A DNA stretch of 64,000 nucleotides from Candidatus Woesearchaeota archaeon (lineage in GTDB: Archaea > Nanobdellota > Nanobdellia > Woesearchaeales > JAHWIC01), in the NCBI GenBank assembly GCA_019322485.1, contig JAHWIK010000015.1, positions 23,216 to 87,215 on the forward strand, written 5' to 3'. Each line of letters starts with the position of its first letter. The stretch's first letter is position 1. The notes under the pieces are model-generated. The model was not told where the DNA came from. It ran no database searches and saw only the letters and a list, made by a program, of their open reading frames with translations. A program made the position numbers and the translations under genes. Of this stretch, positions 60,579 through 64,000 are shown piece after piece.

Positions 60579-62030
60579 TTATTGCTTGACTCTAGCGATA
60601 ATGCTTCTCAACATATGCCCGATAACTTCAATATCATAGAATTTGTTTAATTCAAGCCTTTCTTTGACCCCTATGATTAAAGGATAGGTGCCAATCTGCC
60701 TTCCAAAGGTTGTTTTGCCGTCATAAATTTCCATTCTTACATCCTTGATAACAGTTCCTTCTGGAACAAGTTTCTTTAGCATAGGTGAATCAATCTCCTG
60801 CCTTATCTGGTTGCGCCATTTCCAGTAATATTTCTTGTTCTTTTTTATGAACTTGTTTCCAACAGTATTATATAGCTGGGTTCCTTCAAAAATATCAACC
60901 TGCCTGACATTGATTCTTCTTAGTAATAAGCCCTCACCCATAAAGCGCTTTAGCCATTGGATGTTATGCTCATTTGTGGATTTGCTCTCTCCAATCAGCC
61001 CAAACAGCAAGTTGATTCCAGGCAGGAATTTAGGCATGCCATTCTTGCCTCTTTCCTGGCCATATTTATTCAGTATTCTTCCAGCCTCGTAAGTAACCTC
61101 AGGGTCAGCGTTAAGGTTGTTTTGCTTTACAACCTCTGGGTCAAAGCTTTCAACGCCAAATGCAGCTGTATTGCCTGCTGTACCATACTTAACAATAGCT
61201 TTTGTTATCTCAATTCCTTTTTTTGACACAACATTTACAGGATTTACATTATCAATATGCAAAACCTTTGGCTCGCATTCTTTTCTAATGCCTTCAATAA
61301 TACCAATGGCTTCTGGGTGAGAATAGTAGTCAGACTGTTTTCCTAGTCTAAAATATTTTACACCAAGCTTGTCGAATGCTTTTGCTTCTTTTAGGATATC
61401 TTTTTTTGGTCTGAATGAGATGCTGTTTTTTATTGGCTCTGTGCAAAAGCTGCAATGTGTTTTTCTTGAGCAGCCTTTTGAGGTCTCTAGCTCAATTATT
61501 CTTAAGCTCGGGATTTGTTTTATCAATTCTGTTCCTTTGACTGCAAAATCTTCTACCTCTTCATAGCTGAAATTGAAATCTTTTATCTCGTTGAAATTTG
61601 AAAGGTCTGCCTTTTCAAAGAATCTTCCTCCCTCTGTTGATGTTCCGTAAACAGCAGGTCCAGTTAATATTTTTCTGCAGTTTAGGTCTTTTGTCAGCTG
61701 TATAATCTCCTTTAAAGTACCAGGAACAGCACTTAGGTATTTTCCAGGAGTATGAACACCAGCGATTATAATTAGTTCAGAAGTGGAGTTTAAGATTCCC
61801 TTTATTTCATCACTAGTTCTTGTGGTGTTATATTTTTTAATATTTGTTTTTTGAATTGATTTCTTTTCATTGATACTTTTTAGTAATCTTAAATCGTCTA
61901 TTGTAATATAGTTTGGAATCTTTTCTAAAGAACCGGCAATATATCTAGGATAAGTGCCCAAGTAAGGCGGAACACCTAGACCAGCTGGTTCATCTGTGTA
62001 GCAGTCTAATATTGTGAATACCATAGGCAT
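60579..62030 (-). CDS. radical SAM superfamily protein (483 aa) with a non-canonical Cys motif
   Basis: 'SKGCSRKTHCSFCTE' (CX5CX2C) within a TIM-barrel-like core. Adjacent to phospholipid-synthesis genes. Confidence 0.55.
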   Translation of the reverse strand: MPMVFTILDCYTDEPAGLGVPPYLGTYPRYIAGSLEKIPNYITIDDLRLLKSINEKKSIQKTNIKKYNTTRTSDEIKGILNSTSELIIIAGVHTPGKYLSAVPGTLKEIIQLTKDLNCRKILTGPAVYGTSTEGGRFFEKADLSNFNEIKDFNFSYEEVEDFAVKGTELIKQIPSLRIIELETSKGCSRKTHCSFCTEPIKNSISFRPKKDILKEAKAFDKLGVKYFRLGKQSDYYSHPEAIGIIEGIRKECEPKVLHIDNVNPVNVVSKKGIEITKAIVKYGTAGNTAAFGVESFDPEVVKQNNLNADPEVTYEAGRILNKYGQERGKNGMPKFLPGINLLFGLIGESKSTNEHNIQWLKRFMGEGLLLRRINVRQVDIFEGTQLYNTVGNKFIKKNKKYYWKWRNQIRQEIDSPMLKKLVPEGTVIKDVRMEIYDGKTTFGRQIGTYPLIIGVKERLELNKFYDIEVIGHMLRSIIARVKQ

Positions 62031-62057
62031 AGAATATTATTTCTTGTTATTAAAGCT

Positions 62058-62585
62058 TTACTTAGAACTCTTAATCATTTTAACGCCAATCATAAAATAT
62101 TGGATTGTAGTTAGAAGGCTGAGGATTATTGTTGCAGCTAACAGAAAATCCTTAAACTGATAATTAATGATAAATGATGCTATTACAACCACCTGTAAAA
62201 AGGTTGTTACTTTTCCCAGCTTACTTGCCTTCCAGACTGCTTTTCGTTTTATATGTGCAAGGAGTGAACCGCATAGTGAGATAATATCCCTGGAAAAAAT
62301 CAACAGCCCGTATAAAGGAAAATTGAATCCAATAATAAGTGCTATGACAGCTAGAGTAACCATAAACTTATCAGCCATGGGGTCAAGGAATTCACCAAAC
62401 TTTGTTCTTTGTTTTATGCGCCTGGCTACAAACCCGTCAACCCAATCAGTTAATGCAACAATAAGGAAAACAGTCAGCCCCAGAATGATTTTTGATTTTA
62501 GAAGTAGAATGAAAAATATTGGTGATGCAAGTATGCGAAGTATTGTCAGAACATTTGGGATTAACAGGATTTTTTTTAGTTTCAT
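62058..62585 (-). CDS. CDP-alcohol phosphatidyltransferase. Start taken at the internal Met 'MKLKK'; the longer ORF to 62657 would overlap the PHP gene.
   Basis: 'DWVDGFVARRIKQRTKFGEFLDPMADK' is the D-G-x2-A-R-x8-G-x3-D-x3-D signature. Polytopic membrane protein. Confidence 0.75.
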   Translation of the reverse strand: MKLKKILLIPNVLTILRILASPIFFILLLKSKIILGLTVFLIVALTDWVDGFVARRIKQRTKFGEFLDPMADKFMVTLAVIALIIGFNFPLYGLLIFSRDIISLCGSLLAHIKRKAVWKASKLGKVTTFLQVVVIASFIINYQFKDFLLAATIILSLLTTIQYFMIGVKMIKSSK

Positions 62586-62586
62586 T

Positions 62587-63534
62587 TTAGAATAGATGCT
62601 TAAAATGCATATGATGTTTGGATTCTTTTTTAAGTTCTTTATGGTGGGCATGCACATGGAAATGGAATTCTTCTTTTTTCATCTTATTTTTAAGATGCTC
62701 CATTTCATTTTGATAGTGTGTTTTCAACCATAACAGCCCCTCATGCTTTTTTATGGCGCGCTTAAAATAAAATTTTTCCTTTACTATCTGGTGTATTGCG
62801 TCTGTAAAGAAGCATTCCTCTTTTCCTATGGCAATAGAATTGCCCCTGATTAGAGATTTGAGGAACGATTCAATGTCATTTCCATGAGCTAATGAAATAT
62901 CCAGGCCTAACTCAGCAGTTGTATGGCCGTCTGTTCCAGCAGTCATGCCTTTCTTTAGTTTGTTAGCCCAGTTTATAGCTTTTATGTTCATTCCTCTCAG
63001 GCAAACACCGTTAATACCTTCAATTAAATCTATCTTTTTTATTGTTTTTGGAGGGACATTTATTTTATTGATGCCTGTTACTCCAGGACCAAATGGATGC
63101 GACGCACAAATGACGCAGTTATATTTACTTGCAGCTTCAATTAAGTCTGCTATTTTTGTAGGGATAAAGAAAGGGTTTATTTTTTTCTGAAACAGGATTT
63201 CTTTTTTATAGAACTCCTTGCATTCTGATAATGAATAAAAATAAAGAAGCAGATGCGCGCCTTCATGACAGCTGACTTCTACTCCAGGTATAATGAATTC
63301 TTTTTTCTTAAGCTTAAAGGCTTTTATAACACCGCCAATCTCATTATGGTCTGTTATTGCAACACCAGTGTTAAGTTTCCTGCATCGCTTTAGAACGTTA
63401 TTTATTTTTGATATCCCATCCATGCTGAATTCTGTATGAAAGTGCATGTCAGCTGATGTATAGCCCTCTTTTTCCAGCAGTGATAATACTGGCCCGTAAA
63501 CACCAGCTGGGTTTTCAAGTACGATATCAGTCAT
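62587..63534 (-). CDS. PHP-domain metal-dependent phosphoesterase with a His-rich C-terminal tail
   Basis: 'ADMHFHTEFSMDG' PHP motif I and further His/Asp motifs. Tail 'HFHVHAHHKELKKESKHHMHFKHLF'. Confidence 0.6.
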   Translation of the reverse strand: MTDIVLENPAGVYGPVLSLLEKEGYTSADMHFHTEFSMDGISKINNVLKRCRKLNTGVAITDHNEIGGVIKAFKLKKKEFIIPGVEVSCHEGAHLLLYFYSLSECKEFYKKEILFQKKINPFFIPTKIADLIEAASKYNCVICASHPFGPGVTGINKINVPPKTIKKIDLIEGINGVCLRGMNIKAINWANKLKKGMTAGTDGHTTAELGLDISLAHGNDIESFLKSLIRGNSIAIGKEECFFTDAIHQIVKEKFYFKRAIKKHEGLLWLKTHYQNEMEHLKNKMKKEEFHFHVHAHHKELKKESKHHMHFKHLF

Positions 63535-63631
63535 AAGTATAATCTTGTTAGATTAATATTTAAATCTACCGATATAAAACAAAATTTTTTAAATAGAACC
63601 ATTTCGTGATTATTAAAAGAGGGAATATAGA

Positions 63632-64000
63632 ATGATGTACCCAATAGCTAACCATACCTTATTTGCCTTTTTTAGGTTATTTGTGCGGAAGGTTGAAGGA
63701 CGGAAGAACATTCCAAAGAGTAAGCCGTTTATAATGGCTGCAAATCATGATAGTATTCTTGACCCTCTGATTTTATGCTCTACTATACTGCCCTGGATTG
63801 ACCGTAAGATACATTGGCTTGCGATGAAGGGAAGGTTCTGGAATCTTTTTGGGGACAGGATTTCTAGGAATTGGGCTGGCTGTGTTCCTTTTAATGAAGG
63901 CAAGAAAAAAGCTGTAAACACATTAATAGATTTTTTAAAAAAGGGAGATAATGTTGGCATATTCCCTGGCGGTCCAAGAAGCCTTAATGGAAGCCTGACA
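63632..64000 (+). CDS. PlsC-like lysophospholipid/glycerol-phosphate acyltransferase. Partial: it runs off the window end and is not in the ORF track.
   Basis: Translation 'MMYPIANHTLF...IMAANHDSILDPLIL...GIFPGGPRS' carries acyltransferase motif I H-x4-D ('NHDSILD') and motif III 'FPGG'. Confidence 0.55.
   Translation, partial: MMYPIANHTLFAFFRLFVRKVEGRKNIPKSKPFIMAANHDSILDPLILCSTILPWIDRKIHWLAMKGRFWNLFGDRISRNWAGCVPFNEGKKKAVNTLIDFLKKGDNVGIFPGGPRSLNGSLT

What the first reader, a model, noticed from the sequence alone, without database searches (positions are those of the whole stretch)
60579..64000. Lipid-biosynthesis cluster mixing archaeal and bacterial hallmarks: radical SAM, CDP-alcohol phosphatidyltransferase, PHP phosphoesterase and PlsC-like acyltransferase
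A CDP-alcohol phosphatidyltransferase (head-group attachment) sits between a 483-aa radical-SAM protein with a CX5CX2C cluster motif and a PHP phosphoesterase with a His-rich tail. A phosphatase could complete a synthase/phosphatase pair as in archaetidylinositol synthesis. A divergently oriented PlsC-type acyltransferase (H-x4-D, FPGG) runs off the window end. Ester-forming acyltransferases are a bacterial trait, and radical-SAM enzymes next to lipid genes recall tetraether/ring-forming lipid-modifying enzymes. The cluster may reflect a mixed or scavenging membrane-lipid strategy.
Basis: partly seen in the sequence, partly recalled or inferred. Interest (0 to 1): 0.55.

Follow-up and report, generated by a model that had tools for sequence, protein, structure and literature searches.

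The report
Woesearchaeal polar-lipid head-group gene island
The four genes are real and form the edge of a gene island, conserved across Woesearchaeota, for attaching phospholipid head groups; gene neighbourhoods in two archaeal phyla point to its PHP enzyme as a possible new type of phosphatidylglycerol-phosphate phosphatase, but this is untested, and the radical-SAM gene does not resemble the known lipid-modifying enzymes.

Summary
On the minus strand, PHP phosphoesterase (62587-63534), a PgsA-like CDP-alcohol phosphatidyltransferase (62058-62585) and a 483-aa radical-SAM protein (RS; 60579-62030, CX5CX2C) lie 1 and 27 nt apart. A PlsC-like acyltransferase (63632 onward) is divergent. The contig is a Woesearchaeota MAG.

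Across 80 related species, the 10 kb upstream of the RS gene holds:
- CDP-alcohol transferases in 60 loci
- CarS in 39
- PlsC-like in 33
- PHP in 32
- Psd in 33

The downstream side holds almost none of these. This is a conserved polar-lipid island, not a chance grouping.

The CDP-alcohol transferase is PgsA-like rather than archaetidylinositol-phosphate-synthase-like, so its product needs a phosphatase. The PHP protein keeps all its metal ligands. Its methanogen relatives sit next to PLD-type cardiolipin synthase in 24 of 35 informative metagenome loci. The PHP subfamily is thus linked to the PGP-to-PG step from both sides, which makes it a candidate non-canonical PGP/AGP phosphatase.

The RS protein is not Tes/Grs-like. 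Its predicted fold resembles the methylthiotransferases RimO, MiaB and MtaB, but it lacks their auxiliary cluster. Distant relatives carry HhH tails and sit in non-lipid contexts. Its role is unresolved.

PlsC homologues and the MEP pathway in these archaea are already published.

The parts
60579..62030 (-). Radical-SAM protein (RS), 483 aa (NCBI aa from M3). Three domains: an N-terminal Rossmann-like domain with the family motif D-[CG]-Y-T-D-E-P-x-G-L-G-V-P-P-Y, a radical-SAM core with C187-x5-C193-x2-C196, and a C-terminal five-strand beta-barrel (427-481). Member of an uncharacterised family that JGI labels 'radical SAM superfamily enzyme with C-terminal helix-hairpin-helix motif'. This copy has no HhH tail.
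62058..62585 (-). PgsA-like CDP-alcohol phosphatidyltransferase, about 175 aa from M25 (the mechanical ORF runs to 62657). Complete CAPT motif. Best NCBIfam match is pgsA at 101.1 bits (cut-off 109.1), against 51.7 bits for archaetidylinositol-phosphate synthase.
62587..63534 (-). PHP-family metallophosphoesterase, 315 aa ('type A'). All PHP metal ligands are conserved (H31, H33, H63, E86, H94, H146, D202, H204). C-terminal helices and a His-rich tail follow the catalytic domain. Candidate PGP/AGP phosphatase.
63535..63631 (.). 97-nt AT-rich divergent intergenic region between PHP(-) and the PlsC-like gene(+). It contains TATA-like stretches and is the presumed promoter region for both. This is inferred from the sequence only.
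63632..64000 (+). PlsC-like acyltransferase cut by the window end (123 of 176 codons; full protein is P0297). HX4D is present (H39-D44). Block III reads FPGGPRS instead of FPEGTRS. It lacks the N-terminal two-helix anchor of T. maritima PlsC.

Best explanation
The region is one end of a polar-lipid head-group island that is conserved across Woesearchaeales. The proposed pathway has four steps.

1. The PlsC-like enzyme adds an acyl chain to a lyso-type glycerophospholipid, probably one that was scavenged. The product is a phosphatidic- or archaetidic-acid-type lipid. (Family shown; substrate inferred.)
2. CarS, found in the island of relatives and probably just beyond the window end, activates that lipid with CTP. 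(Shown in relatives only.)
3. The PgsA-like CDP-alcohol transferase moves the lipid-phosphate onto glycerol phosphate to give PGP/AGP. (Family shown; the alcohol is inferred from the HMM ranking.)
4. The PHP metallophosphoesterase, translationally coupled to the transferase by a 1-nt gap, removes the terminal phosphate to give PG/AG. (Inferred from gene neighbourhoods in two archaeal phyla and from an intact active site.)

The radical-SAM gene is a conserved neighbour at the edge of the island. It has a methylthiotransferase-like fold but no auxiliary cluster. It is not a Tes/Grs-type enzyme and its substrate is unknown.
For: Family assignments.

Conserved island, in 80 species-level loci found through the RS gene. 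Counts are for the region upstream of RS:
- CDP-OH transferase in 60 loci
- CarS in 39
- PlsC-like in 33
- PHP in 32
- Psd in 33
- Downstream of RS: one PHP and one alpha/beta-hydrolase hit, none of the other families.
- Recurrent order: CarS, PlsC, PHP, PgsA-fusion, PssA-fusion, Psd, then RS.

PHP and PlsC-like genes often overlap or abut on the same strand, for example in L020, L036, L075 and L079.

PHP evidence:
- All metal ligands are conserved.
- The model is confident, with pLDDT 85.
- The window's PHP is closer to the 289-aa methanogen PHPs (E about 1e-32 to 1e-37) than to the second Woesearchaeal PHP paralogue (1e-13).
- The methanogen PHPs lie beside PLD-type cardiolipin synthase (TIGR04265, 528 bits). 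This holds in 41 of 80 metagenome loci, and in 24 of 35 loci with at least 1.5 kb on both sides. Cardiolipin synthase consumes PG/AG.
- Another Woesearchaeal homologue is flanked by two VTT/DedA genes.

Literature:
- The bacterial PIP phosphatase is described as unidentified, and the archaeal head-group phosphatases (Agp, Aip) as not studied in detail (PMC9385802).
- These Woesearchaeota are reported to lack GGGPS and DGGGPS (PMC8421398).
Against: - No biochemistry exists for any of these proteins.
- All characterised structural neighbours of the PHP protein act on nucleotides or nucleic acids: RNase AM, a Chromobacterium violaceum PHP enzyme solved with bound AMP and phosphate (2yb1; by my recollection a pAp phosphatase), EndoQ and the Pol III PHP domain. 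To my knowledge no PHP-family lipid phosphatase is known.
- The PHP-Cls pairs are mostly convergent, so they are not operons. The link weakens in the most distant homologues (2 of 7), and one distant homologue has no lipid neighbour at all.
- The window also encodes a PAP2 phosphatase (4116-4694), which could be the real PGP phosphatase.
- The transferase scores just below the pgsA cut-off. It also resembles CAP-type cardiolipin synthase (71 bits), whose product would need no phosphatase.
- CarS was not seen in the window itself.
- The PlsC-like protein has a non-canonical block III and scores below the TIGR00530 cut-off.
- Short intergenic gaps are normal in compact DPANN genomes.
Confidence: 0.55

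Rival explanations
1. The radical-SAM protein is a housekeeping RNA-, nucleotide- or protein-modifying enzyme. It sits beside the lipid island only through inherited synteny, so the functional unit here is just PHP, transferase and acyltransferase.
For: - Best structural matches over the full length are RimO, MtaB and MiaB (E 1.7e-14 to 1e-9, TM 0.54-0.63).
- The C-terminal beta-barrel occupies the position of the TRAM domain.
- Family members of 550-600 aa carry HhH motifs (Pfam HHH in P0138).
- None of five contexts outside Woesearchaeales has head-group genes. They are: RNase III and a KaiC-like ATPase; Lhr and Obg; RIO kinase and TYW1; a Firmicute operon with NT5C, dNK, MazG, HhH-GPD and PfkB; and IspDF with a B12 mutase.
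- RS is much more conserved (58-87% identity) than the lipid genes beside it.
- 8 of 54 loci with at least 8 kb upstream have no island genes there.
Against: - RS stays in direct contact with the island in about 55 of 80 species even though its immediate neighbour changes (PgsA-like, PssA-like, Psd, a small membrane protein, PlsC, PHP, CarS, GT2). The other flank is conserved in only 16 of 80.
- In the window's subclade RS follows the transferase on the same strand at 9-30 nt.
- No MTTase or TRAM HMM hits.
- The N-domain cysteines are not conserved family-wide, so there is no MTTase chemistry.
Confidence: 0.45
2. The PHP protein is a nucleotide phosphatase or nuclease, like pAp phosphatases and RNase AM, and has no lipid substrate.
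For: - Closest solved structures are RNase AM, BAD_1165, TM0559, 2yb1 and EndoQ.
- Weak NCBIfam hits to 3',5'-nucleoside bisphosphate phosphatase and RNase RNM.
- JGI labels relatives 'TrpH'.
Against: - Sequence identity to those enzymes is only 12-19%, and all NCBIfam scores are far below their cut-offs.
- Three independent lipid-gene associations are hard to explain otherwise: PgsA-like and PlsC-like in Woesearchaeota, Cls in methanogens, and VTT/DedA.
Confidence: 0.25
3. The PHP protein is a phosphatidate/archaetidate phosphatase. It would supply diacylglycerol or archaeol to the glycosyltransferases of the island, for glycolipid synthesis rather than PG synthesis.
For: - In L002, L006 and L079 the island includes a UgtP/MGDG-synthase-like GT28 and a GT2 beside PlsC and PHP.
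- PHP and PlsC are often co-directional and abutting.
Against: - GT28 is present in only 3 of 80 loci and GT2 in 12, whereas PHP occurs in 32.
- The cardiolipin-synthase linkage in methanogens points to PG rather than DAG.
Confidence: 0.15
4. One reading: an archaetidylinositol-phosphate synthase/phosphatase pair together with a Tes/GrsA-like lipid-tail-modifying radical-SAM enzyme.
For: - The archaetidylinositol-phosphate synthase model is a secondary hit (51.7 bits).
- The second half of some fused transferases in relatives is AIP-synthase-like.
- The PIP/AIP phosphatase has not been identified.
Against: - The pgsA model scores twice as high.
- There is no Tes/Grs similarity by NCBIfam, by PDB sequence search or by Foldseek.
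- These genomes reportedly cannot make the diether core (PMC8421398).
Confidence: 0.07

Closest known systems
Bacterial/archaeal PG branch: PlsC, then CdsA/CarS, then PgsA (Ags), then PgpA/B/C (Agp)
   Same: The order of reactions is the same, and the families for acylation (PF01553), activation (CarS in relatives) and head-group transfer (PF01066, PgsA-like) are the same.
   Different: The phosphatase candidate is a PHP-fold enzyme, unrelated to PgpA, PgpB (PAP2) or PgpC (HAD). The acyltransferase lacks the PlsC N-terminal anchor and has FPGGPRS in block III. No first-chain enzyme (PlsY/PlsB or GGGPS) is known in these genomes.
Methylthiotransferases RimO, MiaB and MtaB (radical SAM)
   Same: Predicted three-domain architecture: N-terminal Rossmann-like domain, radical-SAM core and C-terminal beta-barrel. 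Foldseek E down to 1.7e-14.
   Different: No conserved 3-Cys auxiliary-cluster site. CX5CX2C instead of CX3CX2C. No MTTase, UPF0004 or TRAM HMM hit. Only 11-14% identity.
Lipid-modifying radical-SAM enzymes Tes (GDGT-MAS), GrsA/B and Cds
   Same: Radical-SAM enzymes encoded in archaea and connected with membrane lipids.
   Different: No sequence or fold similarity beyond the generic core. Woesearchaeota of this group are reported to lack the diether core pathway on which those enzymes act.
TrpH / RNase AM / pAp-phosphatase clade of PHP enzymes
   Same: PHP plus PHP_C fold and a full trinuclear metal-ligand set.
   Different: 12-19% identity. Extra C-terminal helices and a His-rich tail. Conserved neighbourhood with phospholipid genes instead of nucleotide genes.
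Published PlsC/PlsY homologues in DPANN, Marine Group II and Asgard archaea (Villanueva 2017; Coleman 2019, PMC6431249)
   Same: The same kind of bacterial-type acyltransferase in uncultured archaea, interpreted as horizontal acquisition.
   Different: Here it is shown to be embedded in a conserved head-group island with CarS, PgsA/PssA-like transferases, Psd and PHP. The papers I read do not describe that island.

Membership tests
CDP-alcohol phosphatidyltransferase (PF01066) | Motif D-G-x2-A-R-x8-G-x3-D-x3-D and a Pfam score above the gathering threshold | tested here: met
   DGFVAR-RIKQRTKF-G-EFL-D-PMA-D is read directly in the translation. 113.9 bits against a cut-off of 22.
PgsA (TIGR00560 equivalog) | Score at or above the curated cut-off of 109.1 bits | tested here: not met
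   101.1 bits. This is the best of all head-group models but just below the cut-off. The fused orthologue in L070 scores 189 bits.
Archaetidylinositol phosphate synthase (NF040950) | Score at or above 180 bits | tested here: not met
   51.7 bits.
PlsC / LPAAT (PF01553; TIGR00530) | Catalytic HX4D block | tested here: met
   NHDSILD in the window. It aligns with NHQSLMD of T. maritima PlsC, 5kym.
PlsC / LPAAT (PF01553; TIGR00530) | Block III (F-P-E-G-T-R) and a TIGR00530 score at or above 102.95 | tested here: not met
   Block III reads FPGGPRS. TIGR00530 gives 63.2 bits for the complete protein. Pfam Acyltransferase is met at 73.8 bits.
PlsC / LPAAT (PF01553; TIGR00530) | N-terminal two-helix membrane-anchor motif as in TmPlsC | tested here: not met
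   The alignment to 5kym starts at TmPlsC residue 57. Only about 12 residues precede it in the Woesearchaeal protein.
PHP phosphoesterase (PF02811) | Conserved His/Asp/Glu metal ligands in the PHP motifs, and the PHP fold | tested here: met
   H31, H33, H63, E86, H94, H146, D202 and H204 are invariant or nearly invariant in 22 sequences. Pfam 40.8 bits. Foldseek hits to PHP structures.
Known PGP phosphatases (PgpA, PgpB/PAP2, PgpC/HAD) | Homology to one of these families | tested here: not met
   Only PHP and PHP_C domains were found. The claim is therefore 'works like', not 'is a member of'.
PGP/AGP phosphatase activity | Hydrolysis of PGP/AGP to PG/AG | not testable with these tools
   Supported only by gene neighbourhood.
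Radical SAM superfamily (PF04055) | Three-Cys cluster motif and the core fold | tested here: met
   C187, C193 and C196 are invariant. Pfam 41.1 bits. Foldseek hits to radical-SAM enzymes.
Methylthiotransferases (MiaB/RimO/MtaB) | Three conserved Cys in the N-terminal domain for the auxiliary [4Fe-4S] cluster; UPF0004 and TRAM domains | tested here: not met
   Only C10 and C118 occur in the N-domain. Both are replaced in distant family members, for example C10 by Gly. No UPF0004, TRAM or MTTase HMM hit. Only the overall architecture matches.
Tes / GrsA / GrsB / Cds lipid radical-SAM enzymes | Sequence or fold similarity beyond the generic radical-SAM core | tested here: not met
   The only NCBIfam hit is a weak 16.9-bit match to MgmA. 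The PDB sequence search found no tetraether synthase, and none appears among the 50 Foldseek matches. Caveat: I could not confirm that HMMs for GrsA/B and Cds exist in the libraries.

The most novel reading that the evidence does not exclude
A PHP-fold metallophosphoesterase subfamily is the unrecognised phosphatidylglycerol-phosphate/archaetidylglycerol-phosphate phosphatase of Woesearchaeota and of Methanomicrobia-type methanogens. It would be a fourth, non-homologous solution to this step. In addition, the adjacent radical-SAM family, which has an MTTase-like fold but no auxiliary cluster, would be a new enzyme acting on a CDP-activated or polar lipid in genome-reduced archaea that rebuild membranes from scavenged lyso-lipids.
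Probability: 0.3. Interest if true: 0.7.

Novelty: new variant of a known kind. Interest (0 to 1): 0.5.

Why it matters
DPANN archaea such as Woesearchaeota are thought to depend on other cells for membrane lipids, and how they build or remodel membranes is an open question.

A conserved island gives a concrete, testable pathway for rebuilding phospholipids from scavenged lyso-lipids. The island combines CarS, PgsA/PssA-type transferases, Psd, a bacterial-type acyltransferase and a PHP phosphatase.

The PHP-cardiolipin synthase linkage in methanogens matters for a separate reason. It nominates a specific, easily expressed soluble enzyme for a head-group dephosphorylation step that has barely been studied in archaea, and it would add lipid phosphates to the substrates of the PHP superfamily.

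The radical-SAM family is an uncharacterised, highly conserved enzyme with an unusual cluster motif. Its anchoring to this island is a lead towards its function.

Tried and rejected
1. Tes/GrsA-type assignment of the RS protein. Rejected: no HMM, PDB-sequence or Foldseek support.
2. MTTase membership. Rejected: the auxiliary Cys triad and the TRAM/UPF0004 HMM hits are absent.
3. The weak hits to MgmA (TIGR04014 and 9ccb). These cover only the generic core of a B12-dependent radical-SAM enzyme and are not informative.
4. Recovering the rest of the source contig to see what lies beyond 64000. Exact-protein look-ups for P0001, the PHP protein and P0297 found nothing. I used the 87%-identical locus L002 instead.
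6. A PDB sequence search with the PHP protein gave only a spurious VPS13A hit.
7. Literature searches found nothing for COG1031, for 'radical SAM superfamily enzyme' with helix-hairpin-helix, for PHP domain with PGP phosphatase, or for archaetidylglycerol with PHP.
8. Family-wide lipid linkage of the RS protein. Not found in five contexts outside Woesearchaeales.
9. Rfam gathering scan of the window. No RNA genes found.

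
Full report
**Source and observation.** The radical-SAM (RS) protein is identical to an NCBI protein from a Candidatus Woesearchaeota MAG, on a contig of 92,607 bp. The nearest species representative, at 87% RS identity, is MAG Yap2000.bin4.8 (L002). All four ORFs are present as described.

On the minus strand the genes run in this order:
- PHP, 62587-63534
- CDP-alcohol phosphatidyltransferase, 62058-62585 from its probable start at M25 (the mechanical ORF reaches 62657)
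- RS, 60579-62030

PHP and the transferase are separated by 1 nt; the transferase and RS by 27 nt. The acyltransferase starts at 63632 on the plus strand, across a 97-nt AT-rich divergent spacer, and is cut by the window end. Its complete product is P0297, 176 aa.

Pfam supports each assignment:
- Radical_SAM, 41 bits
- CDP-OH_P_transf, 114 bits
- PHP, 41 bits
- Acyltransferase, 74 bits

**A conserved island, not a chance grouping.** A scan of one genome per GTDB species found 419 loci that encode close RS relatives. The best 80 (58-87% identity) are all Woesearchaeota/Nanoarchaeia MAGs; some record titles read 'uncultured Methanosarcinales' and I take these to be mislabelled bins.

I searched stop-to-stop ORFs of these loci with the window's proteins and with proteins from L002 and L070. 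The region upstream of RS contains:
- a CDP-alcohol transferase in 60 of 80 loci
- CarS in 39
- a PlsC-like gene in 33
- PHP in 32
- Psd in 33
- a recurrent 159-aa membrane protein in 32

The equally long downstream side contains one PHP and one alpha/beta-hydrolase hit and none of the other families. The only recurrent downstream gene is the M64-like peptidase, in 16 of 80 loci.

The commonest order is CarS(-), PlsC(+), PHP(-), PgsA-fusion(+), PssA-fusion(-), Psd(-), a small membrane protein(-), then RS(+). NCBIfam confirms the parts in L070:
- pgsA, 189 bits, above cut-off
- pssA, 117 bits, above cut-off
- phosphatidylserine decarboxylase, 193 bits, above cut-off

L002, the closest relative of the window, has this order: CarS, PHP (229 aa), GT2, PlsC-like (208 aa), a UgtP/MGDG-synthase-like GT28, a Hydrolase_4 lipase-like protein, the PgsA-like transferase and RS. 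The window differs in having a 315-aa PHP paralogue between the transferase and the PlsC-like gene.

**The transferase and the phosphatase.** The window's transferase has the complete CAPT motif. Its NCBIfam scores are:
- pgsA, 101 bits (cut-off 109)
- CAP-type cardiolipin synthase ClsA, 71 bits
- archaetidylinositol-phosphate synthase, 52 bits
- archaetidylserine synthase, 41 bits

The likeliest product is therefore PGP/AGP, which needs a phosphatase.

The PHP protein keeps every PHP metal ligand across 22 relatives. It gives a confident model, with pLDDT 85 and a PHP barrel followed by three C-terminal helices. Its solved structural neighbours are RNase AM, BAD_1165, TM0559, 2yb1 and EndoQ, all at 12-19% identity.

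Its sequence relatives fall into two groups: Woesearchaeota at 42-88% identity, and 289-aa proteins from Methanoregula and Methanospirillum at 30-35%. In the methanogen group the gene lies beside a PLD-type cardiolipin synthase (TIGR04265, 528 bits).

A metagenome scan seeded with that branch returned 80 loci. Cls lies within 400 bp of PHP in 41 of them, and in 24 of the 35 loci that have at least 1.5 kb on both sides. The arrangement is mostly convergent, and PHP divergence among these loci goes down to about 35-40% identity.

Cardiolipin synthase uses PG/AG, and PgsA makes PGP/AGP. This PHP subfamily is thus tied by neighbourhood to both sides of the PGP-to-PG step, in two archaeal phyla. 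Two further links exist within Woesearchaeota. PHP frequently abuts or overlaps the PlsC-like gene on the same strand. One homologue is flanked by two VTT/DedA-domain genes.

The open literature I could search does not connect PHP enzymes with PGP/AGP dephosphorylation. A 2022 review lists the bacterial PIP phosphatase as unidentified and says the archaeal homologues (Ags, Ais, Agp) have not been studied in detail.

Caveats on the PHP hypothesis:
- All characterised structural neighbours act on nucleotides or nucleic acids.
- The window also encodes a PAP2 phosphatase at 4116-4694. Its neighbours are a DUF368 polyprenyl-phosphate translocase-like gene and a nucleotidyltransferase, and its best hits are undecaprenyl-diphosphatases, which suggests carrier-lipid recycling.
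- One distant PHP homologue has no lipid neighbour.

**The acyltransferase.** Named relatives of the PlsC-like protein are all Woesearchaeota or Nanoarchaeota. It aligns to T. maritima PlsC (5kym, E 2.8e-12) from residue 57 onward, so it lacks the two-helix membrane anchor. HX4D is intact. In the window's subclade block III is FPGGPRS, whereas more distant members keep PEGTR or PEGRR. It also resembles the acyltransferase domain of Aas, a lysophospholipid re-acylating enzyme.

PlsC homologues in DPANN bins are already published and are interpreted as transfers from bacteria (PMC6431249).

**The radical-SAM protein.** It has no specific family hit. JGI labels relatives 'radical SAM superfamily enzyme with C-terminal helix-hairpin-helix motif'.

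An exhaustive HMMER search of 1.84 billion representatives found only 484 relatives at E up to 1e-3, and 151 at E up to 1e-30. This is a small, distinct family.

The AlphaFold model (pLDDT 80, pTM 0.84) has three parts: an N-terminal Rossmann-like domain, the radical-SAM core and a C-terminal five-strand barrel. Over its full length it is most similar to RimO, MtaB and MiaB, followed by the B12-dependent radical-SAM enzymes TokK and TsrM. No tetraether synthase appears among the matches.

It is not a methylthiotransferase:
- The only N-domain cysteines, C10 and C118, are not conserved in distant members.
- No TRAM or UPF0004 HMM hits.
- The family-wide invariants are the motif D-x-Y-T-D-E-P-x-G-L-G-V-P-P-Y, the cluster cysteines and many arginines.

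Members of 550-600 aa add HhH motifs. Five contexts outside Woesearchaeales contain no head-group genes:
- Thermoplasmata: a KaiC-like ATPase and RNase III, with a geranylgeranyl reductase 4 kb away
- an archaeon with Lhr and Obg
- an archaeon with RIO kinase and TYW1
- a Firmicute operon of NT5C, RS, Amdase-like, HhH-GPD, dNK, PfkB and MazG
- a bacterium with IspDF, a BtuF-like protein, RS and a B12 mutase

Within Woesearchaeales, in contrast, RS stays in direct contact with the island even though its immediate neighbour varies among at least eight different island genes. That is more than simple inherited synteny would predict.

I cannot reconcile these two lines of evidence. I rate 'functionally tied to the island' and 'unrelated nucleic-acid or nucleotide enzyme' as about equally likely. 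A possible common thread is cytidine nucleotides: CarS and IspD consume CTP, while CDP-alcohol transferases and IspF release CMP. This is speculation.

**Wider context.** The window also carries a bacterial-type MEP operon with a GGPP-synthase-like gene at 33997-42246. This is already described for Woesearchaeota subgroup J, which includes Yap2000.bin4.8. The same work reports that GGGPS and DGGGPS are absent (PMC8421398 and PMC8204110). A lipase-like alpha/beta hydrolase lies at 22870-24288.

Together with the island, this fits a strategy of rebuilding polar lipids from acquired lyso- or core lipids.

**Verdict.**
- The cluster is a known kind of system, a polar-lipid biosynthesis island.
- It has two features that I did not find described: a PHP-fold candidate PGP/AGP phosphatase supported by cross-phylum neighbourhoods, and an uncharacterised radical-SAM family anchored to the island.

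Noticed in passing
window 33997-42246 (+): Bacterial-type MEP/DOXP isoprenoid operon in an archaeon: Dxs, IspG, a 461-aa unknown protein, an IspDF fusion, IspE, IspH and a GGPP-synthase-like polyprenyl synthase. GC skew is strongly positive over this stretch. The pathway is already published for Woesearchaeota subgroup J (PMC8421398, PMC8204110).
   Followed up: partly
window 36920-38305 (+): 461-aa protein inside the MEP operon, at the position where Dxr/IspC might be expected. Only its C-terminal ~130 residues match anything, namely the PEP-synthase/PPDK mobile phospho-histidine domain. The N-terminal ~330 residues have no Pfam or NCBIfam hit, and no Dxr was seen in the window.
   Followed up: partly
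window 4116-6555 (-): PAP2 phosphatase (best hits are undecaprenyl-diphosphatases), a DUF368/VCA0040-like polyprenyl-phosphate translocase and a sugar-nucleotidyltransferase in a row. This is probably a carrier-lipid recycling unit. The PAP2 protein is also a rival PGP-phosphatase candidate.
   Followed up: partly
window 22870-24288 (-): 472-aa protein with a Lipase_2/PGAP1/LCAT-like alpha/beta-hydrolase domain in its C-terminal half. It may be a lipase used for lipid acquisition.
   Followed up: no
L088-L170 (metagenome loci): A 289-aa PHP protein and a PLD-type cardiolipin synthase form a conserved, mostly convergent gene pair in Methanoregula/Methanospirillum-type archaea and relatives: 24 of 35 loci with enough flanking sequence.
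   Followed up: yes
L070 6501-8647 and many other loci (L015, L027, L028, L031 and others): Woesearchaeal CDP-alcohol transferases often occur as proteins of about 350 aa with two tandem CAPT domains. One type is PgsA-like plus AIP-synthase-like. The other is a degenerate CAPT domain plus a PssA-like domain. The two are encoded back to back.
   Followed up: partly
L085 7493-13298: In a Firmicute, a 39%-identical member of the RS family sits in a tight operon with NT5C-like, Amdase-like, HhH-GPD, dNK, PfkB and MazG-like genes. This looks like a nucleoside or modified-nucleotide metabolism cluster of unknown purpose.
   Followed up: no
window 15432-17414 (-): The ribosomal protein L10/P0 domains occupy only the first ~180 residues of a 660-aa ORF. 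The long C-terminal extension has no family hit. An overlapping 300-aa ORF on the opposite strand suggests low-complexity sequence.
   Followed up: no
window 26013-32063 (-), 9911-12505 (-) and 54977-58272 (-): Very large ORFs of 2016 aa and 864 aa with no Pfam hit. Two further ORFs of 717 and 371 aa appear from their translations to be repeat-rich, acidic, PKD/cadherin-like surface proteins. These are typical DPANN cell-surface proteins that might mediate host contact.
   Followed up: no
window 1-64000: The Rfam gathering scan found no tRNA, rRNA or other RNA gene in 64 kb.
   Followed up: no
window 60547-60578: The spacer between RS and the M64-like peptidase gene contains TTTATATATAAA about 25 nt upstream of the ATG. 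This resembles an archaeal TATA box for a leaderless transcript and suggests that the peptidase gene is not co-transcribed with RS.
   Followed up: no
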